In this document: piece by piece, positions 15,230 through 59,599 of the stretch
Layout: each line of letters starts with the position of its first letter
How positions within the stretch are numbered: the first letter of the stretch is position 1
DNA from: a virus
DNA length: 64,000 bases
UHGV virus genome: UHGV-1421865
Reading direction: 5' to 3' (one strand)
Translations under genes and position numbers: made by a program
The notes under the pieces: generated by a model
Told to the model about the DNA's origin: nothing
What the model saw: only the letters and a program-made list of their open reading frames with translations
Databases searched by the model: none

Positions 15230-15832
15230 ATGAAATTTAAGTATCAACCTCAAACGAAGGAAGAACTCATCCAAATCATCAAAGACGAAACGCAACGTCA
15301 ACTCGATGAGGCGTACGAAAGATACAATGACTTTGAAGAGAACGATGAGGACGACGAGTCGTTTGATGACGAGTATGAGTTGTATGAACAAGAAGGTCTT
15401 GTAACTATCGATCTTAACTTTATCGATGTGTCTAAGATCACAGACATGTCTTATGTGTTCCACGAAGCACTTTCGTACGAGGATCTTGACATCGAGTTTG
15501 ACGATTTCCAAGGTTTCTATCTGTTGATCGACCGCTGGGACGTTAGCAACGTTACGAACATGGAAGGTATGTTCCAAGAGGTTGAGTTTAGCGCTGATTT
15601 GTACGACTGGAACGTGTCCAATGTGAAGAATATGTCTTATATGTTCGATGAGTGTGGACTATTTGATTCTAATTTGTCTAGTTGGGACACGAGCAAAGTA
15701 GAAAAAATGAAAGGCATGTTTGGTGAAGAAAACTACTGTTTCGATGCAGACACAATCAAAGGTTGGGATGTGTCCGGTCTAAAAGATAAAACAGACTACG
15801 AAAGAATTTTAGAACGTCTTAGTGACTGCTGA
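15230..15832 (+). CDS. DUF285-type repeat protein (divergent acidic N-terminus)
   Basis: Repeats 'WDVSNVTNMEGMFQEVEFSADLYDWNVSNVKNMSYMFDECGLFDSNLSSWDTSKVEKMKGMF'. N-terminal D/E-rich segment. Confidence 0.7.
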   Translation: MKFKYQPQTKEELIQIIKDETQRQLDEAYERYNDFEENDEDDESFDDEYELYEQEGLVTIDLNFIDVSKITDMSYVFHEALSYEDLDIEFDDFQGFYLLIDRWDVSNVTNMEGMFQEVEFSADLYDWNVSNVKNMSYMFDECGLFDSNLSSWDTSKVEKMKGMFGEENYCFDADTIKGWDVSGLKDKTDYERILERLSDC

Positions 15833-15854: not shown

Positions 15855-16037
15855 ATGGCAATTCATATCACTAGCAAAACAATGCCGTATGTCGAACCGA
15901 CACCGGTTGTAGAAAATAAGAACACTTATTTCAGCCCGTTTATGGATCCCCATAGTAATGTCGTATACGATTTGTCCGACTGGGACATTCCTGACCCTGA
16001 TAAAGTGTGGGATTTGTCTAATTGGGATTTTGTATGA
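15855..16037 (+). pseudogene. relic or truncated DUF285-family gene
   Basis: Starts 'MAIHITSKT' (family N-cap short form) and contains degenerate 'DLSDWD…DLSNWD' remnants. Only 61 aa. Confidence 0.3.
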
Positions 16038-16928: not shown

Positions 16929-17366
16929 ATGCCACCAACTATAAAACCATCAATCAAACCGGTGCTCAGAGCTATCATAGAGATAGAGTTGAAACAACAA
17001 GGTCCCGATGCCGACTTGAACCATATTGATACATCGGAGATTACCGACATGAAAGAACTGTTTGTTGGTCTAAAGATTCGAAACATCAAAATCGACAAAT
17101 GGGATGTCTCTAACGTTACGAACATGCAAGGGATGTTCTCCGGTTGTACAGAGTTCAATTGTGATCTGTCGAACTGGAATGTATCCAATGTGGAAAATAT
17201 GAATTGTATGTTTTTTGACGCTAGGTTATTTACTTCGCGTCTCTTCAGTTGGAATCTTTCTAAGATACCGAAGAAAAGGATGATGTTTCACGGTGCATGT
17301 ATGTTTATTAGGACACTTTACTCAATGAATGAATTTACATTAGAAGAACTTTGTGACGCATTTTAG
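16929..17366 (+). CDS. DUF285-repeat paralog family member (short)
   Basis: The ATG at 16929 gives 'MPPTIKPSIKP…ELKQQGPDADLNHIDTSEITDM…NIKIDKWDVSNVTNMQGMF'. The track ORF from 16899 starts at TTG. Confidence 0.6.
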   Translation: MPPTIKPSIKPVLRAIIEIELKQQGPDADLNHIDTSEITDMKELFVGLKIRNIKIDKWDVSNVTNMQGMFSGCTEFNCDLSNWNVSNVENMNCMFFDARLFTSRLFSWNLSKIPKKRMMFHGACMFIRTLYSMNEFTLEELCDAF

Positions 17367-20649: not shown

Positions 20650-21405
20650 ATGCCTATACACATCACATCTAAGACTAAATCACTAAGGGTACGACCGGCG
20701 TCAAAAGACGAGCTACGGTTCTTGATAAAGGAAGAACTACAATGTCAAGGTCCTGATGCTGATCTAAATTTCATTGATACATCGTTGATTACAGACATGT
20801 CTCATTTGTTTTCTTTCCCATTAGACCTGCATGTACATGTAGGTAACATCAAAATCGACGAGTGGGACACTTCAAAGGTCACAGATATGTCTTATATGTT
20901 TGTAGATTGTCCATGTTTATATTGTGATCCTTCCAGATGGAACGTATCTGGCGTCATTAGTATGGGGTGTATGTTTGGTGGTTGTAGAGAACTTGATTGT
21001 GACTTGTCAAATTGGAATGTCTCTAATGTAGTAGATATATCAAAGATGTTCAAGGACTGTTATCGATTCAGAGGTACAGGATTGCCGGATTGGAATGTAC
21101 AGAGGCTACAGAAGATGGAGAGTGCGTTTAAGCACTGCCATATACTCAATTGTGATTTGTCGGGCTGGGAGTTTTCGAATCCGGTTGATATGTTCTATGC
21201 TTTCGACGGTTGTTATTCATTTCCCGACGATTATAAACCAAAGCAAGTTCATCGTACAGCTACATCTACGCAGTCAATACAGACCGCTATAACAAATCTT
21301 GCGTCATTACAGAACAATGCTATGAGTAGGTGTATTGGTAATAATAGTGCGTTGATTATGAACGAAGAAATGTATAAGGCCTTTATTAGTATTTATTCTG
21401 ATTGA
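20650..21405 (+). CDS. DUF285-repeat paralog family member
   Basis: 'MPIHITSKTKSLRVRPASKDELRFLIKEELQCQGPDADLNFIDTSLITDMSHLF' followed by WxxS.V repeats. Confidence 0.7.
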   Translation: MPIHITSKTKSLRVRPASKDELRFLIKEELQCQGPDADLNFIDTSLITDMSHLFSFPLDLHVHVGNIKIDEWDTSKVTDMSYMFVDCPCLYCDPSRWNVSGVISMGCMFGGCRELDCDLSNWNVSNVVDISKMFKDCYRFRGTGLPDWNVQRLQKMESAFKHCHILNCDLSGWEFSNPVDMFYAFDGCYSFPDDYKPKQVHRTATSTQSIQTAITNLASLQNNAMSRCIGNNSALIMNEEMYKAFISIYSD

Positions 21406-25720: not shown

Positions 25721-26230
25721 ATGTCGATACACATCACATCAAATACAAAACTTCTTAATCCGAAACCGGTCAATAAAGAACAACTAAGGTCTATTATAAG
25801 TGACGAGTTGAAACAACAAGGTCCAGATGCCGATTTGAACCATATTGACACATCTAAGATCACCGATATGTCTAGTTTGTTTATAGATCTCCGTCCAGAA
25901 AATATCAAGATAGACGAGTGGGACGTTTCTAATGTTACTAATATGCGACAGTTATTTATGAACTGTGGTGACCTTGTTGCTGACCTGTCCGACTGGAATG
26001 TATCAAATGTAACAGACATGTACGGTATGTTTTTTAACTGTTATAATTTCAATTCAGATTTGTCCGGTTGGGACGTCGGCAATGTTAAAAATACAAGGTA
26101 TATGTTTTATAGGTGTTATGGATTAAATACAGATTTATCAAATTGGAAACTTAAAAGCGGTTGCTTTACCAATGACATGTTCACCGAAGCCGATAAACAA
26201 CGAATTCCTAGTTGGTACACACGAAGATAA
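25721..26230 (+). CDS. DUF285-repeat paralog family member
   Basis: 'MSIHITSNTKLLNPKPVNKEQLRSIISDELKQQGPDADLNHIDTSKITDMSSLF' plus repeats. Confidence 0.7.
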   Translation: MSIHITSNTKLLNPKPVNKEQLRSIISDELKQQGPDADLNHIDTSKITDMSSLFIDLRPENIKIDEWDVSNVTNMRQLFMNCGDLVADLSDWNVSNVTDMYGMFFNCYNFNSDLSGWDVGNVKNTRYMFYRCYGLNTDLSNWKLKSGCFTNDMFTEADKQRIPSWYTRR

Positions 26231-26698: not shown

Positions 26699-27148
26699 AT
26701 GAACGAACGATTAAAGATTACATCTAATTCTAAATCAGCGGTACTGAGACCTAAATCTAAAAATGAACTAGAACAACTAATACAGCAAGAGTTGGAACGT
26801 CAAGGCCAGGATGCTGACTTGAATCATATCGATACATCACTGATTACAGACATGTCAGCATTGTTTGCTAATTATGGTACTATTACTATTAGAAATATCA
26901 AAATCGACGAATGGGACGTCAGTAATGTGACCGATATGGAGCACATGTTTAGTTTGTGTGAAAAATTCAACTGCGATCTTTCCCATTGGAACACTTCTAA
27001 TGTCACGAATATGAAATACATGTTCTATAGTTGTGAAAATTTTTATTCCGACTTACGAGGTTGGGACGTATCTAATGTGAGAACGTATATAAAATTTGCC
27101 GATTTATGTTCATCGTCATTTGTTAAAAAGATACCGAAGTTCAAATGA
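26699..27148 (+). CDS. DUF285-repeat paralog family member
   Basis: 'ERLKITSNSKSAVLRPKSKNELEQLIQQELERQGQDADLNHIDTSLITDMSALF'. Confidence 0.7.
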   Translation: MNERLKITSNSKSAVLRPKSKNELEQLIQQELERQGQDADLNHIDTSLITDMSALFANYGTITIRNIKIDEWDVSNVTDMEHMFSLCEKFNCDLSHWNTSNVTNMKYMFYSCENFYSDLRGWDVSNVRTYIKFADLCSSSFVKKIPKFK

Positions 27149-27236: not shown

Positions 27237-27929
27237 TCATTTGAATTGAGGTTGTAGCTGCGGATTAGATTTCATCTTGGGGCAGTTCTTGAACATATCT
27301 CCATGTGTCCATACTTTTCGTACATCCCAACTGGATAAATCAGACTCAAATTTTTTACAATACATAAACATACCGTACATATCTTTGACCTTTGAAACAT
27401 CCCAAGTAGACAGATCAGACTCGAACTTAAAACAATGGTCAAATGTTTGAGCCATGTTTGTTACTTTCGATACGTTCCACTTAGACAAATCAGATGTAAA
27501 TTTTTTACAATCTAAAAACATGCCGCCCATATTGGTAACGTTACTGACGTCCCACTCAGAAAGGTCACAGTTGAATTTTGAACAACCGTGGAACATACTG
27601 TCCATGCGTCGTACATTCGACACGTCCCAAGTAGAAAGATCAGAATTGAATTTGCCACAGCCCATGAACATCTCAGACATTTCTTGTACATTAGATGTAT
27701 CCCAGTCGTCGATTTTGATATTTCTAATCTCAAGCTGAGAAAACAAAAATGACATGTCTGTCATCAACGATGTATCAATGAAGTTCAAGTCGGCGTCCGG
27801 ACCTTGTCGTTGTAGCTCTTGTTTTATGATAGGTCGTATTTCTTCGTACGTCGTAGGTTTGGGACGGTATAAAGGTCTAGTCTTAGACGTGATCTTTATT
27901 CGTTCTGTGATGTATTGTTGTATACTCAT
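27237..27929 (-). CDS. DUF285-repeat paralog family member
   Basis: N-cap 'MSIQQYITERIKITSKT…QGPDADLNFIDTS'. ~6 repeats. C-tail 'CPKMKSNPQLQPQFK'. Confidence 0.75.
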   Translation of the reverse strand: MSIQQYITERIKITSKTRPLYRPKPTTYEEIRPIIKQELQRQGPDADLNFIDTSLMTDMSFLFSQLEIRNIKIDDWDTSNVQEMSEMFMGCGKFNSDLSTWDVSNVRRMDSMFHGCSKFNCDLSEWDVSNVTNMGGMFLDCKKFTSDLSKWNVSKVTNMAQTFDHCFKFESDLSTWDVSKVKDMYGMFMYCKKFESDLSSWDVRKVWTHGDMFKNCPKMKSNPQLQPQFK

Positions 27930-27946
27930 TTACTAGCTGGTACTTA

Positions 27947-28654
27947 TTAGTTTTTGAATTTTGGTTGTAGCTGTGGATTGGATTCCATCTTAGGACAATG
28001 CTTAAACATTTGTGAATGTGTTAGTACATTCGAAACATCCCAACCGGACAAGTCAGATTCAAAATTAGGACATTCACGGAACATATTGTTCATATTTTCA
28101 ACTTTTGAAACATCCCAACCAGACAAATCAGATTCAAACTTGGAACAACTGTGAAAAGTCTCATTCATCGCGGTTACCTTCGAAACATCCCAACCAGACA
28201 AATCAGAATTGAAATTATCACAATCAGCAAACATTGCTTGCATGTCTTCTAATTTAGAAACGTTCCAATGAGATAGGTCAGTGTTGAAGCTAGAACAGGC
28301 ATAAAACATGCTATTTGTATTCCATACTTTTGAAACATCCCAACGAGATAGATCGCAATTGAAATTATCACAACTAGCAAACATGTCACGCATAGTCATT
28401 ACATTATGTGTGTCCCACTCGTCAATTTGGATGTTTCTTATATCGAGGTCTTCAAATAATGCAGACATGTCATAAATCTTAGATGTATCGATATGGTTCA
28501 AATCGGCATCAGGACCTTGCTCTTCTAACTCTTGTTCTATGATAGACCGCAGCTCATTTTTACTTTTTGGAAACAGTGTACGTTCTGTTTGTTTAAGAGA
28601 TCGTGAATTTGATGTTATCTTTAATCGTTCTGTGATGAAATTTTGTAGACTCAT
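27947..28654 (-). CDS. DUF285-repeat paralog family member
   Basis: N-cap 'MSLQNFITERLKITSNS…'. C-tail 'CPKMESNPQLQPKFKN'. Confidence 0.75.
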   Translation of the reverse strand: MSLQNFITERLKITSNSRSLKQTERTLFPKSKNELRSIIEQELEEQGPDADLNHIDTSKIYDMSALFEDLDIRNIQIDEWDTHNVMTMRDMFASCDNFNCDLSRWDVSKVWNTNSMFYACSSFNTDLSHWNVSKLEDMQAMFADCDNFNSDLSGWDVSKVTAMNETFHSCSKFESDLSGWDVSKVENMNNMFRECPNFESDLSGWDVSNVLTHSQMFKHCPKMESNPQLQPKFKN

Positions 28655-28663
28655 ATTTGTATA

Positions 28664-29482
28664 TTATATAGTATTTGAATTGAAGAAATAGTCCGGCGAA
28701 TGTTGGCTCTTAATCCATTCTTCTATCTTATCTATCTCCGACTCTGCGCGCTGTGCGAAAGCGTCGTGATTAAGCGTAATACTACCAGGTAGTTTGTAAT
28801 CGAACGTGCCCAGTATTGTCGACATGGATCTGAGACCTAAGGCGACACAGTATCTAAAGAAGTAGTGACTTTTATACAAGTCTTGTAGTCTACATCTTAT
28901 GTAACAATGTATAATAAGATTAGAACCGTTTAATTCACCGAGCAACGATAACACATTACTATAGTTATTGTAATCAAAAGTAATAGGGTATTCCAGTACA
29001 CTTTGGTACGTACTAATCTCGTAAAGTGTTGCGATAGAGTCCATTAGGTTATATCCCATCTGTTGATTACCGTTTACCCCGCTACTGTAACCTGACATAC
29101 CGTAACCACCAAACGACGCGTTATTGTTTAGTACCATTCGTTCTAATGAGAAATCTCCTCGCATGTGGTAGTTGCTCTGGTCTGTTTTATATACACCGAA
29201 TACAGATACGATTCGTTCCGGTAGAGTAACTAGCTTGTTAAGTCCACATTTTGTTACCTCGCTGTACGGTAAGAAATAGTAGCGTTCTTCGACGGCATTA
29301 TCGTAGTTTTCATAGAAATAGTCGGCGGCTTGTAGTATTAAACTCGGAATCGCGGCAGCCGGGACCGGTAACGGTAATGCACAAGACTGTGTTAGTTCTT
29401 GCACGATACGTTGAATAAACTTATAGTCTATCTGATCCTCTATGTTCTGTTGTGTTTTATCGCATTCGTTAATAGTGTTCAT
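28664..29482 (-). CDS. hypothetical protein embedded in the paralog array
   Basis: 272-aa ORF, unrelated to the DUF285 family. Confidence 0.45.
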   Translation of the reverse strand: MNTINECDKTQQNIEDQIDYKFIQRIVQELTQSCALPLPVPAAAIPSLILQAADYFYENYDNAVEERYYFLPYSEVTKCGLNKLVTLPERIVSVFGVYKTDQSNYHMRGDFSLERMVLNNNASFGGYGMSGYSSGVNGNQQMGYNLMDSIATLYEISTYQSVLEYPITFDYNNYSNVLSLLGELNGSNLIIHCYIRCRLQDLYKSHYFFRYCVALGLRSMSTILGTFDYKLPGSITLNHDAFAQRAESEIDKIEEWIKSQHSPDYFFNSNTI

Positions 29483-29491
29483 TTCGTTGTG

Positions 29492-30295
29492 TTATATCTT
29501 ATTACGTCTAGCTTTCGGTCTCAACTTAGCGTTATCGTACATTTTAGGACATCCTTTGAATATACTGTTTTTATTTACTTTACCGACATGTAAGTCAGAT
29601 AAGTCCCAACCGGACAGGTCCGACTCGAATACCTTACAACCTTCGAACATACCAGTGATATTAAATGTACCACGCATATCCCATCTAGAAAGGTCTGAAG
29701 TAAATTTATAACAGTTCTTAAATGTTTGTCTAAAATTAGTTGTCTTTGATACATTCCAGTCGGACAGGTCGCTTTCAAAGTTTATGCAGTTATAGAACAT
29801 ATTTTCCATACTTGTAACATTCGATACGTCCCATTTAGATAGATCAGAATTGAATTTGACACAACTAAAAAATGTACCAAATAATCCGGTAACCTTAGAC
29901 ACATCCCATCTTGAAAGATCACTATTGAACTTAATACAATTATAGAACATAAGTTTTATATCTGTTACATTACCAGTGTCCCAACGAGATAGGTCTGCGT
30001 TGAAATTTCTACATTCTTCGAACATACCGAACATATCTGTTACATTACCAGTGTCCCACTCGTCTATTTTGATGTTACCTACATTTTTATAAGCAAACAA
30101 ATTGTTCATATCCGTGACCTTAGATACGTCGATATGGTTTAAGTCAGCATCGGGACCTTGTGCTTCTAATTCGTCTTCTATCATCTCAATAAGTTCTGAC
30201 CTGTCTTGGGGAAACAACGTGCATTCTGTTTGTTTAAGTGATCTTGTCTTAGAAGTTATTTTAAGTCGTTCTGTGATGAATTTTGATAGTGACAT
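29492..30295 (-). CDS. DUF285-repeat paralog family member
   Basis: 'MSLSKFITERLKITSKTRSL…'. 7-8 repeats. C-tail variant 'CPKMYDNAKLRPKARRNKI'. Confidence 0.75.
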   Translation of the reverse strand: MSLSKFITERLKITSKTRSLKQTECTLFPQDRSELIEMIEDELEAQGPDADLNHIDVSKVTDMNNLFAYKNVGNIKIDEWDTGNVTDMFGMFEECRNFNADLSRWDTGNVTDIKLMFYNCIKFNSDLSRWDVSKVTGLFGTFFSCVKFNSDLSKWDVSNVTSMENMFYNCINFESDLSDWNVSKTTNFRQTFKNCYKFTSDLSRWDMRGTFNITGMFEGCKVFESDLSGWDLSDLHVGKVNKNSIFKGCPKMYDNAKLRPKARRNKI

Positions 30296-30333
30296 TTTTG
30301 TTAGTTATATTTTTTGAAACAAATAACTCAACG

Positions 30334-31185
30334 CTATGTGTTGTCAAATTTAGGATGAAGCTCCCGTTCAAATTCCATATTAGGACACTCGGCAAACATA
30401 TTATCATGTTTAATAACATTAGAAACGTCCCACATCGACAAGTCAGACCTAAAATTAGAACATCCTCTGAACATCCAACGCATCTCCGTTACATTCGATA
30501 CGTTCCATCCTGATAAATTGGCGTCGAACACCCTACAAGATACAAACATACCATACATATCCTTTACTTTTGAAACATTCCACTTAGATAGTTCGCTATT
30601 GAAATTTCTACATTCATAGAACATGTGTGACATGTTCGTCACATTTGAAGTGTCCCATATTGAAAGATCTGAATTGAATTTTTTACAGTTATAGAACATA
30701 CTCTTCATTTTAGTCACATTAGAAACGTCCCAACCGGACAAATTAGATTTGAATGAATCACAATTATCAAACATCCAACGCATATCTATTACATTCCGTG
30801 TGTCCCAATGTGATAAATCGCAATTGAACGCTCTACAACCTTCGAACATAGCATACATATTCGTCACATTCCTAACATCCCAACCTGACAAGTCACAATT
30901 GAACTTTCTACATTCTCGAAACATACCCTGCATATTCGTCACATTAGAGACATCCCACTGGTCGATTTTGATATTTCCTACATTAACCTTGACCTGTGGG
31001 AATAAATCTCTCATATTTGTAATACCAGAGACATCTATATGGTTCAAATCAGCATCCGTACCTTGTTGGAATAGTTCTTGTTTTATGATAGTTAGAAGCT
31101 CAGATTTTGTTTTAGGCTTCGGTCTATATAATTGGGTATCAGACGTAATCTTTAGACGTTCTACAATATATCTTTGAAGTGACAT
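30334..31185 (-). CDS. DUF285-repeat paralog family member (longest in the cluster, ~9 repeats)
   Basis: 'MSLQRYIVERLKITSDTQ…'. C-tail 'CPNMEFERELHPKFDNT'. Confidence 0.75.
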   Translation of the reverse strand: MSLQRYIVERLKITSDTQLYRPKPKTKSELLTIIKQELFQQGTDADLNHIDVSGITNMRDLFPQVKVNVGNIKIDQWDVSNVTNMQGMFRECRKFNCDLSGWDVRNVTNMYAMFEGCRAFNCDLSHWDTRNVIDMRWMFDNCDSFKSNLSGWDVSNVTKMKSMFYNCKKFNSDLSIWDTSNVTNMSHMFYECRNFNSELSKWNVSKVKDMYGMFVSCRVFDANLSGWNVSNVTEMRWMFRGCSNFRSDLSMWDVSNVIKHDNMFAECPNMEFERELHPKFDNT

Positions 31186-31191
31186 ATAAAA

Positions 31192-31965
31192 TCATTTGAA
31201 TTTAGGTTGAAGTTGGCGATCAGCACGCATCTTAGGGCAGTTATTAAACATTTGCGAATGTGTTTTTACTTTCGAGACATCCCACCCCGATAAATCAGAC
31301 TCGAAAATTTTACAATCACTAAACATCTCGCTCATATTTGCCACATTTGAAACATCCCAACTAGATAAATCTGATTCGAATTTTATACAACCTTCGAACA
31401 TAGCATACATATTCGTCACATTACTGACATTCCAACTAGATAAGTCTGATGTAAAACTCCTGCAGTAAAGAAACATCTTACTCATATTTTCTACATTGGA
31501 CACTTGTGAAGCCCATTTAGACAGATCAGATTCGAATTTATTACAGCTACTAAACATTCCCCTCATATTTGTAACATTAGAGACATTCCATTTAGAAAGA
31601 TCTGAGTTGAATTTATTACAATTCGAGAACATGCCTTCCATATTTTCAACCCTTGATACGTCCCAACTAGATAAATCGGCAGTGACATAAAAACAGTGCA
31701 TAAACATTCCCTTCATATTTGTAACATTAGAAGTATCCCAATCGTCTATCTTTATGTTCTTTATACCGTCTATACCCTTAAATAGTTCAGACATATCTGT
31801 AATCTCTGATGTATCGATAAAGTTCAAATCAGCATCTGGACCTTGTCGTTCTATTTCGGCCTTTATTATATCTATAAGATCTTCTTTTGTAGTAGGTCTC
31901 AGTACCGCTGATTTAGTATCGGACGTAATCTTTAGACGTTCGTTGACAAAATTTGAAAGTGACAT
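31192..31965 (-). CDS. DUF285-repeat paralog family member
   Basis: 'MSLSNFVNERLKITSDTKSAVLRPTTKEDLIDII…'. C-tail 'CPKMRADRQLQPKFK'. Confidence 0.75.
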   Translation of the reverse strand: MSLSNFVNERLKITSDTKSAVLRPTTKEDLIDIIKAEIERQGPDADLNFIDTSEITDMSELFKGIDGIKNIKIDDWDTSNVTNMKGMFMHCFYVTADLSSWDVSRVENMEGMFSNCNKFNSDLSKWNVSNVTNMRGMFSSCNKFESDLSKWASQVSNVENMSKMFLYCRSFTSDLSSWNVSNVTNMYAMFEGCIKFESDLSSWDVSNVANMSEMFSDCKIFESDLSGWDVSKVKTHSQMFNNCPKMRADRQLQPKFK

Positions 31966-34153: not shown

Positions 34154-35023
34154 TTAGTAGTCTTCCTCTTCATCCTCGTCATAAGTTACTTTTGAAAAAT
34201 CAGGCATGTTTTTCTTTTTCATACTCTTACATTTATCAAGCATACCATCAATACTACGTACATCCATTAGATCCCACTTCGATAAGTCAGTATCAAGTTT
34301 TTCACAACCGTAAAACATACTGGTCAATTCTATTGCACTTGCAATATCCCATTTCGATAGATCACAATTGAGGTTCTTACACATATAGAACATATAACCC
34401 ATATAAGCTACCCTTCTAACATTCCATTTGGAAAGATCAGAATTAAAGTTTACGCACCGACTAAACATACCGTGCATATTTTCTACTTTCGACACGTCCC
34501 ATTTAGATAGGTCTGAGTTAAATTTTTGGCAGGAGGCAAATAGACTGTGCATATTTTCTACTTTCGAAACATTCCAAGCTGACAAGTCAGATTCGAATTC
34601 GTGACAAGCAAAGAACATTTCGGTCATTGAAATAACATTCGACACGTCCCATTTCGAAAGGTCTGATTTAAATTTATAACAATTGCAAAACATCTCTTGC
34701 ATATAAGTTACCTTAGAAACGTCCCAACTAGATAAGTCAGCATTGAAATTCTTACAATCTTCAAACATGTATGACATATTAGTGACGTTAGAAGTGTCCC
34801 ACTGGTCGATTTTGATATTTCTTATATTCAATTTATTAAACAACCAAGCCATATCCGTGATCTTAGACGTGTCGATAAAGTTCAAATCGGCGTCAGGACC
34901 TTGTTCTTTTAGTTGCTCTACTATTAGCTTACGAAGTTCTTTTATATTCTTAGGCCTATTCTTATTGCCGAAAAGTGAACCAAAAGATAATTTCTCCACT
35001 ATATAATTTGATAGTACTTCCAT
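34154..35023 (-). CDS. DUF285-repeat paralog family member (long, acidic C-terminus)
   Basis: N-cap 'LRKLIVEQLKEQGPDADLNFIDTSKITDMAWLF'. ~8 repeats. C-terminal 'KCKSMKKKNMPDFSKVTYDEDEEEDY'. Confidence 0.7.
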   Translation of the reverse strand: MEVLSNYIVEKLSFGSLFGNKNRPKNIKELRKLIVEQLKEQGPDADLNFIDTSKITDMAWLFNKLNIRNIKIDQWDTSNVTNMSYMFEDCKNFNADLSSWDVSKVTYMQEMFCNCYKFKSDLSKWDVSNVISMTEMFFACHEFESDLSAWNVSKVENMHSLFASCQKFNSDLSKWDVSKVENMHGMFSRCVNFNSDLSKWNVRRVAYMGYMFYMCKNLNCDLSKWDIASAIELTSMFYGCEKLDTDLSKWDLMDVRSIDGMLDKCKSMKKKNMPDFSKVTYDEDEEEDY

Positions 35024-42210: not shown

Positions 42211-42681
42211 TCAACGCAGCTGTAATCGGAATTCGATTGGCATACAGTCGCAACCGTCGAAGGTAACCCAACTTATATGTTTTGCACAAGGCTTCCACTC
42301 ACTCAGATCACATTTTAATTTCGAACAGCCGTGGAACGCAAAATCAAGATTTTCTACATTTCTAACATCCCAATTGGATAAGTCACAGTTGAAGTGCATT
42401 TGACCGGAAAACATTCTATACATGTTTGTTACGTTGCTAACGTCCCACTGGTCGATTTTGATGTCTCTAATATAGAACACAACACTATCACCGACATAGA
42501 CTTTATGGTAAGACCTCCTGAACAAATACGACATGTCAGTAATTTTCGACGTGTCAATGAAGTTCAAATCAGCATCCGGACCTTGACGTTTTATTTCTTG
42601 TTCTATAATAGATCTGAGTTCGTCTTTCGACGTCGGTTGTATGCTGAGACTTTTACTATTTGATGTGATATGTAGTACCAT
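42211..42681 (-). CDS. DUF285-repeat paralog family member (short)
   Basis: 'MVLHITSNSKSLSIQPTSKDELRSIIEQEIKRQGPDADLNFIDTSKITDMSYLF'. ~3 repeats. Confidence 0.65.
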   Translation of the reverse strand: MVLHITSNSKSLSIQPTSKDELRSIIEQEIKRQGPDADLNFIDTSKITDMSYLFRRSYHKVYVGDSVVFYIRDIKIDQWDVSNVTNMYRMFSGQMHFNCDLSNWDVRNVENLDFAFHGCSKLKCDLSEWKPCAKHISWVTFDGCDCMPIEFRLQLR

Positions 42682-51871: not shown

Positions 51872-52849
51872 TTAGTCTACAGCAAGCATGTCTTTTTCGA
51901 ATTCGTACGTTATCATTTTAGATACAATGCCTTTCGAATTCGTATGCAGTAATTTGTTATTATCTATTATAACAAAACGCATCAGCTTATCGTTCGTATT
52001 ATTCTTCAGCAGTTTATCAAACGTACCGTCATTTTTAGAATTAGTTATGACACTATTGGCAATGTTTACAGTACCGGAATTGTATTCGAGTGTCGAGTCT
52101 TTAACAAAACAAGCGGTATATGTATCGTTTTTTAGTTCTGAGTCGATAATCATCGAATTCAATACAATACACTTCTCAATTTCCGAGTCGCTGATTGTAA
52201 CAAACTTAAACTCTGTGTCGACACCCTTACTTCCATAATATGTTACATCTTTTAACGTACTGTTTTTAATCCACGAACGAGTAGTCTTCTTTGTTGTAAA
52301 GTGTGTTTCGTACAACGACGAATTGTCGATAATAAATGTAGCGTTCGGACTAACAATGCTAGAATCTTCAAGATAAACATTCTGCCCCAGAACTACTTTA
52401 CCGATAACCTCTCCTTGATGGATCCATACACGAATTTTACCGTCTTTCCCGACAGTGAACCCGTTCAGGTTATCGACCTGCCCGCCCCATGTTCCTTTCT
52501 TGATTTTCACATCACCGACAGTGAAATCTTCTGTAGCGTACAGCCTATACAACTTCGATCCAGACTTTGACTTTTTATTTTCGTCCATGAATGCAATGTT
52601 ATACTGCGAGGGTATCTCTTCTCCAGATGTAAACACTAAATCTTCAGGTTTTACACCCGTTTCATAGATGTATTTGTAGTTAAATCTAAAGTCGGTGAAA
52701 GAGATAGTCGATCGAATACTATTTTCTATCTTTTTAACTTTGGCTTCTTTCTCTTTTTTAGAAAAACCAAACACTTCGTCGACACGTTCTTCAGTAGTCT
52801 GCGCCTCCCCATTAAAGGATTCGTAAATGTAGTCTTTTAATGTTAACAT
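51872..52849 (-). CDS. hypothetical virion-module protein
   Basis: 325-aa ORF between the capsid and sheath genes. Confidence 0.4.
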   Translation of the reverse strand: MLTLKDYIYESFNGEAQTTEERVDEVFGFSKKEKEAKVKKIENSIRSTISFTDFRFNYKYIYETGVKPEDLVFTSGEEIPSQYNIAFMDENKKSKSGSKLYRLYATEDFTVGDVKIKKGTWGGQVDNLNGFTVGKDGKIRVWIHQGEVIGKVVLGQNVYLEDSSIVSPNATFIIDNSSLYETHFTTKKTTRSWIKNSTLKDVTYYGSKGVDTEFKFVTISDSEIEKCIVLNSMIIDSELKNDTYTACFVKDSTLEYNSGTVNIANSVITNSKNDGTFDKLLKNNTNDKLMRFVIIDNNKLLHTNSKGIVSKMITYEFEKDMLAVD

Positions 52850-52987: not shown

Positions 52988-54784
52988 TTATACAAAACCG
53001 AAGTCGGAATGTACACAGAACGTATAGTATTGTTGTTCGGGATAGAATCCAGCCTCAACAAGTGCGTAACGCGAGTTAACGAGCACCTTGGGAGCCATCG
53101 TACCTTCGGCGGTAACGGTTACGGTATCTGCCAAGATATAAGGCATGAATACCAAACCAGGAGAGTTACCGTCACCCTTACGACCTACGCAAACACGAGT
53201 ATCTTCCCATGCCATGTAGGGGTCTACATAAACTTCGAGACCGAACAGCGTACCAGCGTGGTAGAGACCGTTTTGGTTGTCCTGTGCCAATGTATTGGTA
53301 GTAGGAGCGATGATGTAACCTGCAACGTCTTGGAGAGCAGTAGCGATGAGGGGGTTAGTAACAACCCAAGTTGCACGACCGCGACGACCGGTTACCTGGA
53401 TAAGGTTAGCAGCTGCCAAGATACGCGAACTGATACGACGTTGGCGGGTGTGCATGTTTTCGGCCGATGTATTGGCTTCGGCATTCTTAATATCACCCCA
53501 GTTTGCCTTCTGGTCTACGCCGTAGATGTCTACATAAGTGCAACCGTCGTACGTGGCAAGCGCCTTAGTAGCAGTACCTGCACCGATATAGAGGTTCAAG
53601 TCTACACCCTGGAACATACGTTGCTGAGCGGCATTCGTTACACCGAGAGCAAATACACGTTCGAGAATGCGAGCGTTGATACTCTGGATGATTTCGTTCT
53701 GCATCGTTTCGGTAATCTTACCCAAGGCGTCGACACCGTAAAGGGGAAGGTCTTGCAATTGCTGACGGGTTACCGTACCGGTTACTTCGTAAGAACCAGC
53801 CTGTACCCACTTACCGAAGATACGAAGACCGATAGTGTTACCGGTACCCGTTTCGTTTTGAGCACGCGTCATGGCTTCCTTAGCGCCGGTAGCGAAGTTA
53901 GCGAAACCGTCGACGAAGTCGGCCTGAGCAGTTACGAAGTCGGCCTTAGCACCAACAAGTTCAACGGGAGCAGCCAGCTTGTGAGTAACACCCGCAGTAG
54001 TGAAACCTTCGAGACTAACCTTGTTATCGGTATTCGTAAATACCTCGGTGATAGCAGCCTGGTTCTTAGTGAAGTCGGTACCGACAGGATAAGCAACTTC
54101 GATAGTCTTAAAGATAAGACCGCCGTCGTTACGACCGAAGCCCTTGAATTCACCCTTGAACGTAGCCTTACCGAGTGCGCCGGCAACGGTATTTTCGATA
54201 GTATAAACATGACCTACTTCAAGTCCGTCCTTCAACTTCTTACGAAGGTCGTTAGTGAAAGTAGCAAGTACCTTAATATAGATAGGCTTGTTTTCTGCAC
54301 CGGCACCCTTACCGTCAAACGACGTTTCGTTGATACGACCGAGCTTACCGCCTGCGTAGGGGAAGTCCATATAAGAAAGGTAGGTAAGAGGACCGTTCAT
54401 AGGAATAGTAGGAACAAGTTCGAGACCTACAGTAATCAACGCGATGTTAAGTGCCATGGGGAGCGTCGACGTGGGAACATCACCGGAACCAGGAGTTTGG
54501 TTGAAGAGGTTGCCTACGGCACCCGGAGCTGTGCTCATGGGGTTAGGATTACCGGGAGCCGCAGGGTTACCCATACCGGTAGTATTAAGAGGCGTAGCAT
54601 AAACAGGACCTACACCGCCAGTGCCTACGTACGCGCCGTTAGCGACACCGAGCTGCGATTCGTATACTTCGTGGTTAGCAGCGTACTGTGCCATCCAAGA
54701 AAGTTTGGTCTTGTCTGAAATGTTAAAGTTTTCGGTTAACATCTTTTGCCATTGATGTACACCGGATTGTTCAGTTATAAACAT
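52988..54784 (-). CDS. major capsid protein (T4 gp23-like)
   Basis: 598 aa. Gly/Ala/Thr/Val-rich. Lies downstream of the gp21-like protease-scaffold gene. The segment 'ALITVGLELVPTIPMNGPLTYLSYMDF' resembles gp23 'AFDICGVQPMNSPTGQVFALRAVY' (recalled). Confidence 0.6.
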   Translation of the reverse strand: MFITEQSGVHQWQKMLTENFNISDKTKLSWMAQYAANHEVYESQLGVANGAYVGTGGVGPVYATPLNTTGMGNPAAPGNPNPMSTAPGAVGNLFNQTPGSGDVPTSTLPMALNIALITVGLELVPTIPMNGPLTYLSYMDFPYAGGKLGRINETSFDGKGAGAENKPIYIKVLATFTNDLRKKLKDGLEVGHVYTIENTVAGALGKATFKGEFKGFGRNDGGLIFKTIEVAYPVGTDFTKNQAAITEVFTNTDNKVSLEGFTTAGVTHKLAAPVELVGAKADFVTAQADFVDGFANFATGAKEAMTRAQNETGTGNTIGLRIFGKWVQAGSYEVTGTVTRQQLQDLPLYGVDALGKITETMQNEIIQSINARILERVFALGVTNAAQQRMFQGVDLNLYIGAGTATKALATYDGCTYVDIYGVDQKANWGDIKNAEANTSAENMHTRQRRISSRILAAANLIQVTGRRGRATWVVTNPLIATALQDVAGYIIAPTTNTLAQDNQNGLYHAGTLFGLEVYVDPYMAWEDTRVCVGRKGDGNSPGLVFMPYILADTVTVTAEGTMAPKVLVNSRYALVEAGFYPEQQYYTFCVHSDFGFV

Positions 54785-54805: not shown

Positions 54806-55441
54806 TCAAAGTGTCTTGTTAAGTCTGTCCTCAAATACCTTGTTCGTGTCTCTCAACATTTCAGCCATGTGACCTACTGTATGAAAGGTGATGTCTGTAT
54901 ACCCGTAGTCCTTTTGAAGAACCATAAACGGATACATCACCGCTCGTTTTAGACCCAATTTATTAAGGACGCCGTCTGCGACATCTGAGTGTAGTTCGAA
55001 TTTGTAATTTAATAGTTTGTCGTAACAATTGTTATAAACAACTATAAAATGTGTCGCCCAACACCATGTTATGTCCCATAGACCTTCTTTATCGGTATTT
55101 CTATTCGGATTAGAAGTACCGTATATACCACCGTGGAGAATATCATAACCGGCAGATTCGCAGTAGTTTACATATTGTAAGAATGTATTCTCATTATAAT
55201 AATCAGTAAAATATGCGTCATCTTCGACGAGTATGCACTTCTCGTAGCCGTTTTTCTTTGCATCGGCTATACAATTCATCATCGATAGCCACAAACCGTA
55301 ACGCCGATTGTCATCCAAAAAGACACACTGTGTCATTTGTACATCAAATTCCGACTTGTTACTGAACTGCCTTACAACGTCAGCGTACCTGTCCGGACGA
55401 CGATCTTTGTTACTTATAATGTATGTTTTAATTCCGTTCAT
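54806..55441 (-). CDS. glycosyltransferase family 25-like protein
   Basis: 'KTYIISNKDRRPDRYADV' resembles the GT25 N-terminal motif (I(I/V)NLxxxxxRR). 211 aa. Lies between the scaffold and capsid genes. Confidence 0.4.
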   Translation of the reverse strand: MNGIKTYIISNKDRRPDRYADVVRQFSNKSEFDVQMTQCVFLDDNRRYGLWLSMMNCIADAKKNGYEKCILVEDDAYFTDYYNENTFLQYVNYCESAGYDILHGGIYGTSNPNRNTDKEGLWDITWCWATHFIVVYNNCYDKLLNYKFELHSDVADGVLNKLGLKRAVMYPFMVLQKDYGYTDITFHTVGHMAEMLRDTNKVFEDRLNKTL

Positions 55442-58909: not shown

Positions 58910-59599
58910 TCAGATATTGAATTTAGGTTTCATTTTAGGTTTCATCTTAGGACATTTATAAAACATGCGTGGCATGTATGTTACCTTGTCTACATTCCAG
59001 CCGGATAAGTCGCTGCTAAAATTACTACATTCATAGAACATGTACTTCATATCTGTGACCTTTGAAGTGTCCCATTTTGATAGGTCGCTATTGAAATTAC
59101 TACATTCATAGAACATTTCTGCCATGTCCGTCACATTACTGACATCCCAACTAGATAAATCATTATCTAAAGCACTACACCCATGAAACATCCCTTCCAT
59201 AGTTGTCACATTAGAAGTGTTCCATTTTGATAGGTCGCTATTGAAACTATTACAACCATCGAACATGTACCTCATATTAGTGACTTTTGAAGTGTTCCAA
59301 CGAGAAAGGTCACAATTGAATTTTATTTGACTCATAAACATGCCGGCCATGTTCGTCACATTGCTGACGTCCCAATCGTAGATTTTGATGTTTCCAATAA
59401 AAACACTATTAAACAAATACGACATGTCGGTTATCTTCGACGTATCGATAAAGTTCAAGTCAGCATCTTGACCTTGTCGTTCTAATTCCTCCTTTATTAT
59501 GCCTTTTAGTTCGTCTTTCGTTTTGGGTACTAGTTTTTCCAAAGGTTTAGAATTAGACGCAATCTTTAATCGTTCTGTGATGAAATTTGAAAGTAACAT
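58910..59599 (-). CDS. DUF285-repeat paralog family member
   Basis: 'MLLSNFITERLKIASNSKPLEKLVPKTKDELKGII…'. C-tail 'CPKMKPKMKPKFNI'. Confidence 0.75.
   Translation of the reverse strand: MLLSNFITERLKIASNSKPLEKLVPKTKDELKGIIKEELERQGQDADLNFIDTSKITDMSYLFNSVFIGNIKIYDWDVSNVTNMAGMFMSQIKFNCDLSRWNTSKVTNMRYMFDGCNSFNSDLSKWNTSNVTTMEGMFHGCSALDNDLSSWDVSNVTDMAEMFYECSNFNSDLSKWDTSKVTDMKYMFYECSNFSSDLSGWNVDKVTYMPRMFYKCPKMKPKMKPKFNI

What the first reader, a model, noticed from the sequence alone, without database searches (positions are those of the whole stretch)
27237..31965. Conserved acidic N-terminal cap and basic C-terminal tail shared by the paralogs: candidate targeting/processing signal
Most members begin with a ~60-aa cap 'MSL..FI.ERLKITS(N/K)(T/S)(K/R)SL…(T/S)K(D/E)EL..II..EL..QGPDADLN(H/F)IDTS.ITDMS.LF'. 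Minus-strand members end with 'CPKM……(L/M)QPKFK', while most plus-strand members lack this canonical tail. The repeat number between the two caps varies. A short cap form 'M(A/P/S)(I/L)(H/K)ITSKTKSL' also exists (20650, 25721, 42211, 59639, 63194). The phage encodes a T4 gp21-like prohead protease, and T4 internal proteins carry cleavable N-terminal capsid-targeting sequences. The conserved cap could therefore be a packaging or processing signal. Several caps contain an 'ITE|R' site resembling the gp21 (L/I)xE cleavage motif. This is speculative. Alternatively the conserved ends may simply be recombination handles for cassette shuffling.
Basis: inference. Interest (0 to 1): 0.6.

Follow-up and report, generated by a model that had tools for sequence, protein, structure and literature searches.

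The report
Portable capsid-targeting-like leader on phage LRR paralogs
A giant gut phage carries over twenty copies of a leucine-rich-repeat protein; most of their shared ends are ordinary structural caps, but the first ~19 residues are a floppy leader also found on many unrelated proteins of related phages and resembling the tag phage T4 uses to load proteins into its head.

Summary
The window holds 20 full DUF285/PARCEL leucine-rich-repeat paralogs, five of them in 27237-31965, with a shared N-terminal cap and, on most minus-strand copies, a basic 'CPKM..LQPKFK' tail. The cap is not one unit.

Structural part: residues ~22-62 (helix 'PxTKxEL..II..EL..QGPDA' plus the first repeat) and the C-tail are confidently folded in AlphaFold2 (pLDDT above 95). 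The tail travels only with DUF285 bodies. These are the N- and C-caps of the solenoid.

Leader part: the first ~19 residues ('MSLxxF[IV]xE-RLKITSxTKS') are predicted disordered and are under purifying selection. In related jumbo phages the same leader sits on at least 20 BLAST-unrelated small proteins. In cultured phage PAU a matching leader heads the scaffold and proteins annotated 'internal capsid protein'.

The leader matches the T4 capsid-targeting sequence (MKTYQEFIAE) in register and ends in the [LIV]xE motif of gp21-type proteases. The phage encodes an S77/gp21 protease directly downstream of 12 of these genes.

Best reading (about 0.55): a CTS-like prohead-targeting, probably cleaved, leader on a diversified LRR cargo family. 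No proteomic evidence exists. Recombination handles are poorly supported.

The parts
27237..27929 (-). DUF285 paralog (230 aa), long leader MSIQQYITE|RIKITSKTRP
   Evidence: PF03382 at 206 bits. Leader 27873-27929, helix plus LRR1 27741-27857, tail CPKMKSNPQLQPQFK 27240-27284.
27947..28654 (-). DUF285 paralog (235 aa), long leader MSLQNFITE|RLKITSNSRS
   Evidence: PF03382 at 209 bits. AF2 model md3e5435e2bf2: residues 1-27 have pLDDT 43-71 and the rest above 97. Leader 28598-28654, tail 27950-27997.
29492..30295 (-). DUF285 paralog (267 aa), long leader MSLSKFITE|RLKITSKTRS, variant tail CPKMYDNAKLRPKARRNKI
   Evidence: Leader 30239-30295, tail 29495-29551.
30334..31185 (-). DUF285 paralog (283 aa), long leader MSLQRYIVE|RLKITSDTQL
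   Evidence: PF03382 at 320 bits. Leader 31129-31185, tail CPNMEFERELHPKFDNT 30337-30387.
31192..31965 (-). DUF285 paralog (257 aa), long leader MSLSNFVNE|RLKITSDTKS
   Evidence: Leader 31909-31965, tail CPKMRADRQLQPKFK 31195-31239.
28664..29482 (-). T4 gp13-like neck protein. Lies inside the finding's interval but is not a paralog.
   Evidence: PF26809 Phage_T4_gp13 on the identical gene in L004. No DUF285 hit.
34154..35023 (-). DUF285 paralog (289 aa), divergent leader MEVLSNYIVE|KLSFGS, acidic C-terminal extension
42211..42681 (-). DUF285 paralog (156 aa), short leader MVLHITSNSKS
57425..58195 (-). DUF285 paralog (256 aa), long leader. Last gene before the protease.
58201..58905 (-). DUF285 paralog (234 aa), long leader with a 5-aa insertion (MTLSTFIHNSLITE|RLKITS)
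58910..59599 (-). DUF285 paralog (229 aa), long leader MLLSNFITE|RLKIASNSKP
   Evidence: AF2 model m36badedf988c: residues 1-15 have pLDDT below 50, residues from about 21 are above 95, and the last 9 residues (221-229) average 95.
59639..60397 (-). DUF285 paralog (252 aa), short leader MALKITSKTKS
60405..61094 (-). DUF285 paralog (229 aa from the ATG at 61094), long leader
61899..62594 (-). DUF285 paralog (231 aa), long leader
62599..63189 (-). DUF285 paralog (196 aa), long leader with a 13-aa insertion
63194..63784 (-). DUF285 paralog (196 aa), short leader MLKITSNTKS
63792..63998 (-). C-terminal part of a further paralog, cut by the window end (148 aa in L006)
15230..15832 (+). Divergent DUF285 paralog (200 aa). 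No leader, acidic insert in the cap helix, no tail.
15855..16037 (+). 60-aa remnant starting MAIHITSKT with degenerate DLSxWD motifs
16929..17366 (+). DUF285 paralog (145 aa). No leader, no tail.
20650..21405 (+). DUF285 paralog (251 aa), short leader MPIHITSKTKS, non-canonical C-terminus
25721..26230 (+). DUF285 paralog (169 aa), short leader MSIHITSNTKL, no tail
26699..27148 (+). DUF285 paralog (149 aa), intermediate leader MNERLKITSNSKS, tail KKIPKFK
55438..57351 (-). Prohead protease (S77/gp21 family) fused to a repeat-rich scaffold-like C-terminal half. N-terminus MSKKRCIIYE|TLG. Six 28-aa (84-nt) repeats carry [IV]xE motifs, mostly 'P[TM]IGE'.
   Evidence: phrog_207, PF03420, sequence, 84-nt repeats D17. 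T4 gp21 reads MNEPQLLIE|TWG.
54806..55441 (-). 211-aa ORFan between protease and MCP, N-terminus MNGIKTYIISNKD (degenerate leader-like)
   Evidence: No Pfam or PHROG family.
52988..54784 (-). Major capsid protein (gp23 family). N-terminus MFITE|Q. L-x-E at residues 16-18 and [IV]-x-E at 39-41 are conserved in most of 80 relatives.
51872..52849 (-). 325-aa ORFan downstream of the MCP, N-terminus MLTLKDYIYE|S (leader-A-like)

Best explanation
The shared ends of the paralogs are three different things.

(1) Residues ~22-62 are an amphipathic helix 'PxTKxEL..II..EL..QGPDA' followed by the first repeat 'DLNxIDTSxITDMSxLF'. This is the N-terminal cap of a DUF285/PARCEL leucine-rich-repeat solenoid.

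(2) The last degenerate repeat plus 'CPKM....LQPKFK' is its C-terminal cap. Both caps are structural and specific to this DUF285 subfamily.

(3) The first ~19 residues are a separate, flexible N-terminal leader. They consist of module A 'MSLxxF[IV]xE' and module B 'RLKITSxTKS'.

I infer that the leader works like the T4 capsid-targeting sequence. It would dock the protein onto the scaffold/protease core while the prohead assembles. The S77 (gp21-type) protease would then cut after the invariant Glu9 ([IV]-x-E|R). The mature LRR protein would stay in the head with the DNA and enter the host at infection, where the variable repeat surface binds host targets.

Copies that lack module A sit mostly among early or metabolic genes on the plus strand. 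These would act without being packaged.

Shown here: the anatomy, the predicted fold and disorder, purifying selection, portability of the leader, its resemblance to the T4 and PAU leaders, and the adjacent protease.

Inferred only: packaging, cleavage, ejection and what the repeats bind.
For: **Structure.**
- Two AF2 models have mean pLDDT 92.7 and 93.4.
- The leader is unconstrained: residues 1-27 have pLDDT 43-71 in one model, and residues 1-15 are below 50 with no secondary structure in the other.
- The helix, the repeats and the tail score 86-99.
- The best PDB match is TpLRR, followed by other LRR proteins.
- The Pfam DUF285 profile already covers the sequence from about 'DADLN'.

**The tail is domain-specific.** The tail motif is present in 7 of 7 DUF285 leader proteins of relatives. 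It was scored in 1 of 59 leader proteins classed as non-DUF285, and that one is in fact a DUF285 protein missed by the classifier.

**Selection acts on the protein.**
- Paralog DNA is 60-75% identical.
- The proportion of synonymous sites that differ is 0.48-0.86, while amino-acid identity in the leader is 0.62.
- Codons of the conserved L, I, T, S and R residues vary among copies.

**The leader is portable.**
- In 80 loci of related phages (MCP 52-64% identical), 41 of 551 non-DUF285 genes carry [FYH][IVL]xE at the leader position. At internal offsets the count is 1-6 of about 500.
- 28 proteins with the strict leader fall into 20 body clusters by BLASTP, and only one cluster is DUF285.
- IMG/VR loci give 44 more leader proteins, 7-8 of them DUF285.
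- The genes occur in tandem arrays of 7-9, several just upstream of the protease gene.

**The leader is N-terminal.** An exhaustive profile search places the module at residue 1 in nearly all of 144 representative clusters.

**Link to head assembly.**
- In the window's phage, 12 leader-bearing DUF285 genes lie directly upstream of protease, a 211-aa gene and the MCP. They are co-oriented, and no strong terminator appears before the one after the MCP at 52962-52934.
- In cultured phage PAU, 13 of 36 proteins around portal-protease-scaffold-MCP start 'MK[TS][LI]xxL[YF]E[AS]'. Four or five of these continue 'KLNE[AS]'.
- That PAU set includes the annotated scaffold gp152 and two proteins annotated 'internal capsid protein'.

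**Resemblance to T4.**
- The T4 CTS is MKTYQEFIAE (10.1101/2021.01.19.427310). T4 internal proteins share only the CTS (PMC3012670).
- The P1 Glu sits at residue 10 in 64 of 66 clade leaders, and at residue 9 in the window (11 of 12) and in PAU (12 of 13).
- The leader-derived pattern hits 13 of 2326 ATG starts in T4. Four of these are annotated gene starts: ipII, ipIII, inh and gp61.1. The first three are known gp21 substrates (my own knowledge).
- T4 IPI, gp23 and Alt are cut at ITE|A, LTE|A and ITE|L respectively; the sequences are, the cleavage sites are from my own knowledge.

**Protease specificity.**
- The window protease begins ..CIIYE|TLG, and relatives read C[LI][IV]YE|TLG. T4 gp21 reads LLIE|TWG.
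- Its scaffold-like half repeats P[TM]IGE.
- The MCP keeps conserved L-x-E and I-x-E sites in its first 41 residues in most of 80 relatives.

**Precedent.** SPN3US has a 20-member paralog family of head proteins (PMC5694885).
Against: - No proteomic or structural evidence shows that any of these proteins is in a virion or is cleaved.
- The residues after the putative cut (K/R-L-K-I-[NT]-[KS]-x-[ST]-K) are as conserved as those before it. This is not the case for T4 IPs, so the leader may do something besides, or instead of, being a removable tag.
- Eight of 20 paralogs lack module A.
- T4 IPs are small and basic. These proteins are 150-290 aa and mostly acidic (pI 4.3-6.5).
- Synteny is loose. 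In most relatives the region upstream of the protease holds other genes, and leader arrays also occur elsewhere in the genomes.
- PTm1, another cultured relative, shows no such array near its head genes.
- A bare [LIV]xE within the first 14 residues is common: 20 of 53 non-paralog ORFs in the window have one.
- The patterns used in the enrichment tests were defined after seeing the data.
Confidence: 0.55

Rival explanations
1. There is no signal. The whole cap and tail are the N- and C-terminal caps of the LRR solenoid, kept by structural constraint and common descent of recently expanded paralogs.
For: - The helix, first repeat and tail are confidently folded.
- The first repeat is the most conserved segment, at 0.81 identity.
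- The tail occurs only with DUF285 bodies.
- The Pfam profile covers part of the cap.
Against: - The first 15-27 residues are not folded onto the domain in either model.
- The same leader heads at least 20 BLAST-unrelated bodies and the PAU scaffold.
- The paralogs are old: synonymous sites are near saturation.
Confidence: 0.15
2. The leader is a docking peptide for a common partner other than the prohead core. It could attach variable LRR adhesins to the outside of the virion (head or tail fibres), or bind a shared chaperone or regulator in the infected cell.
For: - DUF285/BspA-type LRRs are typically surface adhesins.
- PAU has a mop of tail fibres and PTm1 has head fibres (PMC7824862).
- Module B is conserved beyond the putative cleavage site, and short forms keep only module B.
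- Other phages carry giant DUF285 proteins that are likely fibres: Vibrio C-ZP2022 has an 18-kb CDS and PAU has gp103.
- The window genes are co-oriented with late, neck and lysis genes.
Against: - In PAU the leader is on the scaffold and on proteins annotated as internal capsid proteins.
- The register and residues match the T4 CTS, and the leader-derived pattern retrieves T4 IPs.
- Many leader-bearing proteins are 100-170-aa ORFans, which are unlikely to be fibres.
Confidence: 0.17
3. The conserved ends are DNA-level recombination handles that let gene cassettes shuffle between loci.
For: - Leader-bearing genes form tandem arrays with swapped bodies.
- A 21-nt identical element follows two paralogs, at 30314-30334 and 59619-59639.
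- DUF285 repeats are described as mobile PARCEL elements (PMC2996958).
Against: - All DNA repeat families found among the paralogs are only 60-75% identical.
- Leader codons differ at synonymous sites, so there are no long identical tracts across copies.
- Conservation follows the amino-acid pattern, with variable 'x' positions. This points to selection on the peptide.
Confidence: 0.06
4. The 5' conservation reflects an mRNA-level element, such as a translation-initiation or regulatory site, rather than a peptide function.
For: - Synonymous divergence in the leader (0.48-0.57) is lower than in the first two repeats (0.77-0.86).
- The Glu is always GAA and the Lys mostly AAG.
Against: - Codons for L, I, T, S and R vary freely.
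- Upstream regions are not conserved.
- The motif is kept as amino acids across phages whose MCPs are 52-64% identical.
Confidence: 0.03

Closest known systems
T4 capsid-targeting sequence (CTS) of internal proteins IPI/II/III, Alt and Inh, processed by the gp21 prohead protease
   Same: - It is a short N-terminal peptide starting at Met1 and ending in [LI]-x-E at residue 6-19. T4 examples are MKTYQEFIAE and MKTFKEF..ITE. Clade and window examples are MKxLxxYIxE and MSLxxFITE.
- It is shared by otherwise unrelated proteins.
- The phage has gp20/gp21/gp23-type head genes.
- The genes lie partly next to the protease gene.
   Different: - The leader here is longer, about 18-19 aa. Its conserved basic second half (KLKINKDSK / RLKITSxTKS) lies after the putative cut.
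- The cargo is a family of 20 or more acidic LRR proteins plus dozens of ORFans, not three to five small basic proteins.
- Packaging and cleavage are untested.
Sphingomonas phage PAU head-module proteins (gp131-133, 142-146, 149, 150, 152-154)
   Same: - The leader pattern is related: 'MK[TS][LI]xxL[YF]E[AS]', followed by 'KLNE[AS]' in four or five of them, with Glu at residue 9.
- It occurs on many small proteins around portal, protease and MCP.
- The MCP is 38% identical.
   Different: - The PAU carriers are not DUF285 proteins.
- PAU's DUF285 protein gp103 is a large protein without the leader.
- The PAU annotation 'internal capsid protein' is taken from the GenBank record. I could not find its experimental basis.
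DUF285 / PARCEL (BspA-like, TpLRR-type) repeat proteins, including the 38 or more paralogs of the giant virus AaV
   Same: - The Pfam family and the 25-aa repeat are the same, and antisense ORFs run through the repeats.
- There is a large lineage-specific expansion in a virus genome. In AaV, two members were detected in virions (PMC2996958, PMC7507832).
   Different: - PARCEL flanks were reported as specific to each ORF.
- Here all copies share one N-cap, one C-cap and a leader.
- There are no membrane-targeting signals.
SPN3US / phiKZ head paralog families and propeptides
   Same: Giant phages carry up to 20 paralogous head proteins and conserved N-terminal propeptides cut by a gp21-related protease (PMC5694885).
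   Different: - The phage lineage is unrelated and the cleavage motif differs (A/S/G-x-E).
- The propeptides are mostly longer than 100 aa, and the protein families are different.

Membership tests
DUF285 / PARCEL LRR (PF03382) | Pfam PF03382 match above the gathering score | tested here: met
   100-320 bits against a cutoff of 25 for nine paralogs.
DUF285 / PARCEL LRR (PF03382) | Tandem ~25-residue amphipathic repeats | tested here: met
   75-nt start-to-start spacing in a 50-copy DNA repeat family. Repeat consensus WDVSNVTNMxxMFxxCxxFNxDLSx.
DUF285 / PARCEL LRR (PF03382) | LRR solenoid fold | tested here: met
   AF2 pLDDT 93 with one short strand per repeat. The best PDB match is TpLRR 6mlx, but it is weak (E = 3e-3, TM 0.36).
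DUF285 / PARCEL LRR (PF03382) | Dyad-symmetric coding DNA that gives open antisense frames | tested here: inconclusive
   Long antisense ORFs overlap the repeats, for example 27454-27738+ and 30749-31177+. Palindromy was not measured.
T4-type CTS-bearing internal head proteins | N-terminal 10-20-aa peptide ending in [LI(V)]-x-E | tested here: met
   12 of 20 paralogs have this, with Glu at residue 9 in 11 of the 12 sequences tallied. Glu is at residue 10 in 64 of 66 clade leaders.
T4-type CTS-bearing internal head proteins | The phage encodes a gp21-family (S77) prohead protease | tested here: met
   PF03420 and phrog_207 at 55438-57351.
T4-type CTS-bearing internal head proteins | The leader is the only part shared among otherwise unrelated cargo proteins | tested here: met
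   20 body clusters among 28 leader proteins. 44 more leader proteins in IMG/VR loci. Within the window itself only DUF285 proteins carry the full leader.
T4-type CTS-bearing internal head proteins | The protein is physically inside the capsid | not testable with these tools
   This needs virion proteomics or cryo-EM. The lineage is uncultured.
T4-type CTS-bearing internal head proteins | The leader is removed by the prohead protease | not testable with these tools
   There is only motif-level consistency with T4 sites and with conserved sites in this phage's protease, scaffold repeats and MCP.
T4-type CTS-bearing internal head proteins | Small, highly basic mature protein (T4 IPs) | tested here: not met
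   The paralogs are 145-289 aa. pI is 4.1-6.5 for 18 of 20.
LRR N- and C-terminal capping modules (general concept) | Non-repeat flanks that fold onto the first and last repeat | tested here: met
   The helix (residues 28-42 or 32-46) and the tail have pLDDT 86-98 in two models. The tail co-occurs only with DUF285 bodies. Contacts were not inspected at atomic level.

The most novel reading that the evidence does not exclude
A clade of uncultured gut and rumen jumbo phages, distantly related to PAU and T4, uses one ~18-residue N-terminal leader as a universal address tag. The tag loads dozens of fast-evolving cargo proteins into the capsid for co-injection. In this phage the cargo includes a repertoire of more than 20 LRR binders. 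This would be a T4-IP-like anti-defence or host-takeover arsenal expanded by an order of magnitude. The conserved basic second half of the leader would remain on the mature protein as a second functional motif, for example for DNA association or ejection.
Probability: 0.35. Interest if true: 0.8.

Novelty: new variant of a known kind. Interest (0 to 1): 0.62.

Why it matters
If the leader is a capsid-targeting tag, it gives a sequence rule for predicting which proteins of these uncultured jumbo phages are packaged and injected. Many of those proteins are ORFans with no other clue to function.

It would also show that a phage can pack a large, diversified family of repeat-protein binders. Such a family is a natural candidate for countering varied host defences or for broadening host range.

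In practice, T4's CTS is already used to load foreign proteins into capsids. A second, divergent tag would extend that tool to other phages.

If the leader proves not to be a targeting signal, it is still a strongly conserved, disordered N-terminal motif shared by many unrelated phage proteins, and it needs an explanation.

Tried and rejected
- **Cap against deposited phages.** A tblastn of the cap consensus against 50,697 phage records matched only the LRR part (residues 44-83). No deposited phage shares residues 1-43. A 37-aa clade-leader query found nothing, possibly because of BLAST's low-complexity filter.
- **Window DNA and the 620-aa ORF.** Megablast of 27000-33000 and tblastn of the 620-aa ORF against the phage records both found no match.
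- **Protease in IMG/VR.** Searching IMG/VR with the protease found no relative. Related loci came instead from the metagenome scan with the MCP.
- **'Listeria phage' contig.** This hit is a Firmicute surface LRR protein with a signal peptide and has no cap. I rejected it as a relative.
- **Giant DUF285 proteins.** The Vibrio C-ZP2022 and PAU gp103 hits are giant DUF285 proteins without the cap.
- **dN/dS.** Cap-versus-repeat dN/dS among paralogs was not usable as a ratio, because synonymous sites are saturated in the repeats (proportion of synonymous differences 0.77-0.86). Only the raw proportions are reported.
- **Synteny.** I first read the DUF285 cluster as sitting in the T4 gene 67/68 position. 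I weakened this after finding that the region upstream of the protease is variable among relatives.
- **PTm1.** The head region has no leader array.
- **Literature.** A full-text search for the motif strings found only the T4 CTS. Searches on DUF285, BspA and jumbo phages found no description of this cap or leader.
- **Family annotation.** Pfam and PHROG scans of the leader-bearing ORFans gave no family.

Full report
**What the window is.**
The 64-kb window belongs to an uncultured jumbo myophage.
- It is carried on metagenome contigs of 143-187 kb: ERZ772909 NODE_12 and ERZ651108 NODE_4, whose MCP is 98% identical. Related contigs reach 205-228 kb.
- Its major capsid protein (52988-54784, minus strand) is gp23-type. 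It is 34-38% identical to those of Tenacibaculum phage PTm1 and Sphingomonas phage PAU, and about 29-34% identical to those of the Lak megaphages.
- It also encodes an S77/gp21-family prohead protease fused to a repeat-rich C-terminal half (55438-57351).
- Other recognisable genes are a long tail sheath, a gp13-like neck protein (28664-29482), endolysins, ribonucleotide reductases and a sigma factor.
- No deposited phage is close at the DNA level.

**Checking the observation.**
A six-frame scan finds 20 complete paralogs, one copy cut by the window end and one 60-aa remnant.
- All tested members are Pfam DUF285 (PF03382) at 100-320 bits. This is the 25-residue BspA/TpLRR-type repeat described as PARCEL (PMC2996958).
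- The finding's interval holds five paralogs plus the unrelated gp13-like gene.
- Correction 1: the cap is not simply acidic. Its first ~20 residues are net basic and the rest acidic.
- Correction 2: the cap is only moderately more conserved than the repeats.

Mean pairwise identity by segment:

| Segment | Identity |
|---|---|
| Leader module A | 0.62 |
| Leader module B | 0.62 |
| Cap helix | 0.57 |
| First repeat | 0.81 |
| Repeats 2-6 | 0.49 |
| Tail | 0.45 |

**The copies are old.**
DNA repeat families among them are 60-75% identical. The proportion of synonymous sites that differ is 0.48-0.86. The shared peptide features are therefore held by purifying selection, not by recent duplication or gene conversion. 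Codons of the conserved leader residues differ among copies.

**Anatomy from structure prediction.**
Two AlphaFold2 models were made: 27947-28654 with 20 sequences, and 58910-59599 with 37 sequences. Their mean pLDDT is 92.7 and 93.4.
- From about residue 22-28 onward everything is confident (95-99). This covers a 15-residue helix ('SKxELxxIIxxELxxQG'), the repeats with one short strand each, and the C-terminal tail.
- The first 15-27 residues are not confident (pLDDT 43-71). In the better-sampled model they have no secondary structure.
- The Pfam profile already aligns from about 'DADLN'. Foldseek's best solved match is the Treponema TpLRR protein, followed by other LRR proteins, all weak.

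So the '60-aa cap' is a disordered leader of about 19 residues joined to a structural N-cap (helix plus first repeat). The basic tail is a structural C-cap.

**The tail belongs to the domain; the leader does not.**
- An exhaustive profile search with residues 1-45 found only 144 representative clusters, nearly always matching from residue 1.
- More distant members keep the same plan: 'MKxLxxYIxEKLKI[SN]K...Y.PKTKxEL...G.[DE][AC]DLNDIDVS.ITDMS.LF ... P[KN][FW][KY]'.
- I fetched 80 loci around MCP homologues that are 52-64% identical, from JGI metagenomes and human-gut assemblies.
- In these loci the leader is common on proteins that are not DUF285. 41 of 551 non-DUF285 genes have [FYH][IVL]xE at the leader position, against 1-6 of about 500 at internal offsets.
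- 28 proteins with the full leader 'M..L..YI.E[KR]L' fall into 20 BLASTP-unrelated body clusters, only one of which is DUF285.
- A DNA-pattern scan of IMG/VR added 44 more leader proteins, 7-8 of them DUF285.
- The genes form tandem arrays of 7-9, for example L031 170-4473 and L043/L094. None has a Pfam or PHROG family.
- By contrast, the tail motif is in 7 of 7 DUF285 leader proteins and in none of the true non-DUF285 ones.

**Link to head assembly.**
- In this phage, 12 co-oriented leader-bearing DUF285 genes run straight into the protease gene, a 211-aa ORFan and the MCP. The first strong terminator comes after the MCP, at 52962-52934.
- The five paralogs of the finding's interval are packed with the neck gene and downstream of the endolysin genes.
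- In some relatives (L031, L032, L043/L094, and partly L022, L055 and L075) leader arrays also sit just upstream of the protease. In most relatives that region holds other genes, and arrays occur elsewhere too. Position is therefore suggestive, not diagnostic.
- The strongest link is the cultured relative PAU. Of the 36 proteins I translated around its annotated portal, protease, scaffold and MCP genes, 13 begin 'MK[TS][LI]xxL[YF]E[AS]', and four or five of these continue 'KLNE[AS]'. They include the annotated scaffold gp152 and two proteins annotated 'internal capsid protein'.
- PTm1 has no such array.

**Resemblance to the T4 capsid-targeting sequence.**
- T4 internal proteins carry a ~10-residue CTS, MKTYQEFIAE. 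It is cut once by gp21 and is sufficient to package foreign proteins (10.1101/2021.01.19.427310). The T-even internal proteins are described as a diverse set sharing only the CTS (PMC3012670).
- From the T4 record I read these N-termini:

| T4 protein | Sequence around the site |
|---|---|
| IPII / IPIII | MKTYQEFIAE\|A |
| IPI | MKTFKEF..STITE\|A |
| Inh | MIDKDYIAE\|L |
| Alt | MELITE\|L |
| gp21 | MNEPQLLIE\|TWG |
| gp22 | MLKEQLIAE\|A |
| gp23 | SFLTE\|AEIGG |

  The cleavage positions marked here are from my own knowledge of T4.
- The clade leader has its invariant Glu at residue 10 in 64 of 66 cases. The window's paralogs have it at residue 9 in 11 of 12, and PAU in 12 of 13.
- The pattern ^M.{3,6}[FYH][IVL].E was derived from the clade leader. 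It hits 13 of 2326 ATG-initiated frames in T4.
- Four of those 13 hits coincide with annotated gene starts: ipII, ipIII, inh and gp61.1 (MKTFKEFIKE). The first three are known gp21 substrates (my own knowledge).
- This phage's protease starts ..CIIYE|TLG, and relatives read C[LI][IV]YE|TLG. That parallels T4 LLIE|TWG.
- The protease's C-terminal half has six 28-aa (84-nt) repeats carrying [IV]xE motifs, mostly 'P[TM]IGE'.
- The MCP begins MFITE|Q and keeps L-x-E (residues 16-18) and [IV]-x-E (39-41) in most of the 80 relatives.
- The ORF after the MCP begins MLTLKDYIYE|S.
- A T4-like [LIV]xE specificity is therefore plausible here. It is not shown.

**Most likely mechanism (inferred).**
The leader docks the protein onto the scaffold/protease core during prohead assembly. 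The protease cuts after Glu9. The LRR protein stays in the head and is delivered with the DNA.

A precedent for many paralogs in one head exists: SPN3US has a 20-member paralog family of head proteins (PMC5694885). In the giant virus AaV, 2 of 38 or more DUF285 paralogs were found in particles (PMC7507832).

All five plus-strand copies lack module A and sit among ribonucleotide-reductase and sigma-factor genes. Twelve of the 15 minus-strand copies have it (one-sided Fisher p about 0.004 by my own calculation; tandem copies are not independent). This fits a split into packaged and non-packaged members.

**What argues against this.**
- There is no proteomic evidence.
- The part after the putative cut ('[KR]LKI[NT][KS]x[ST]K') is as conserved as the part before it, unlike in T4.
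- Short forms keep only that second part.
- The proteins are larger and more acidic than T4 IPs.
- Synteny with the protease is not conserved across the clade.
- A bare [LIV]xE near an N-terminus is common: 20 of 53 non-paralog ORFs in the window have one.
- My patterns were chosen after seeing the data.

A docking role for another common partner remains open, for example attachment of adhesin-like LRRs to the outside of the virion. A purely structural reading fails for the leader but holds for the helix, first repeat and tail. The recombination-handle and mRNA-element readings fit the codon data poorly.

**Novelty.**
CTS-tagged internal proteins and DUF285 expansions in viruses are each known. 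I found no description of this 18-19-residue leader, of its portability across dozens of ORFan families in a gut and rumen jumbo-phage clade, or of an LRR family of more than 20 members carrying it.

I rate it a new variant of a known kind. It is of moderate-to-high interest because it gives a testable rule for predicting packaged and injected proteins in uncultured jumbo phages.

Noticed in passing
window 1963-2129, 26215-26381, 26436-26602, 41315-41481, ~42050-42210, 47545-47711: A ~170-nt repeat occurs in six copies (61-88% identical), mostly in gaps between long ORFs. RNAalifold predicts a long hairpin with an inner stem-loop, and 9 of 24 pairs show compensatory double changes, for example ACGCAC/GTGCGT against TCGCGT/ACGCGA. 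It has no Rfam family, and there are no tRNAs in the window. It is a candidate structured RNA or regulatory cassette.
   Followed up: partly
window 30314-30334 and 59619-59639 (minus strand): An identical 21-nt element, GCGTTGAGTTATTTGTTTCAA, appears twice. Each copy lies just after a paralog ending ..PKFDN[TA]. At 59.6 kb it contains a small hairpin (CAACGC-ata-GCGTTG) and a T-run. Zero of 100 shuffles gave two matches. It could be a shared terminator or a trace of a segmental duplication.
   Followed up: partly
window 55880-56365 (protease gene, minus strand): Six tandem 84-nt (28-aa) repeats in the C-terminal half of the prohead protease encode 'WV[TS]xEYSxxLxxYLKExFAP[TM]IGE'. This looks like a protease-scaffold fusion with one [IV]xE motif per repeat. 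PTm1 annotates a similar fusion.
   Followed up: partly
window 27454-27738 (+), 30749-31177 (+), 31496-31690 (+) and others: Long antisense ORFs run through the DUF285 repeats, with their own repeat pattern ('VTLxTSHxxRSxLN'). This fits the palindromic coding property reported for PARCEL elements. They are probably not genes.
   Followed up: no
L090 5057-5887 and 8335-8874: A more distant relative (MCP 52% identical) uses a different shared N-terminus, 'MKSLQESLFD[SD]DLVSKD'. It occurs on a DUF285 protein and on an unrelated 179-aa protein. This suggests that leader swapping is a general habit of the clade.
   Followed up: no
L058 and L061, 74-7990: In other relatives the region upstream of the protease holds a different paralog family: proteins of 347-717 aa, at least three of them starting 'M..HI.[LV][NT]Q...NVP..LI.KLY'. 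A 920-aa ORF sits at the upstream end. This region may be a hot spot for lineage-specific expansions.
   Followed up: no
L006 1-540 (about 9.5 kb beyond the window's right end): A TnpB / IS605 OrfB (Cas12f-like) gene lies in the phage genome, near an ATP-grasp (RimK-like) gene upstream of the DUF285 cluster.
   Followed up: no
T4 record NC_000866 18966-19130 (gp61.1): T4 gp61.1 is a 54-aa protein annotated as hypothetical. It begins MKTFKEFIKE, which is almost the IP capsid-targeting sequence. I do not know whether this has been noted or tested.
   Followed up: no
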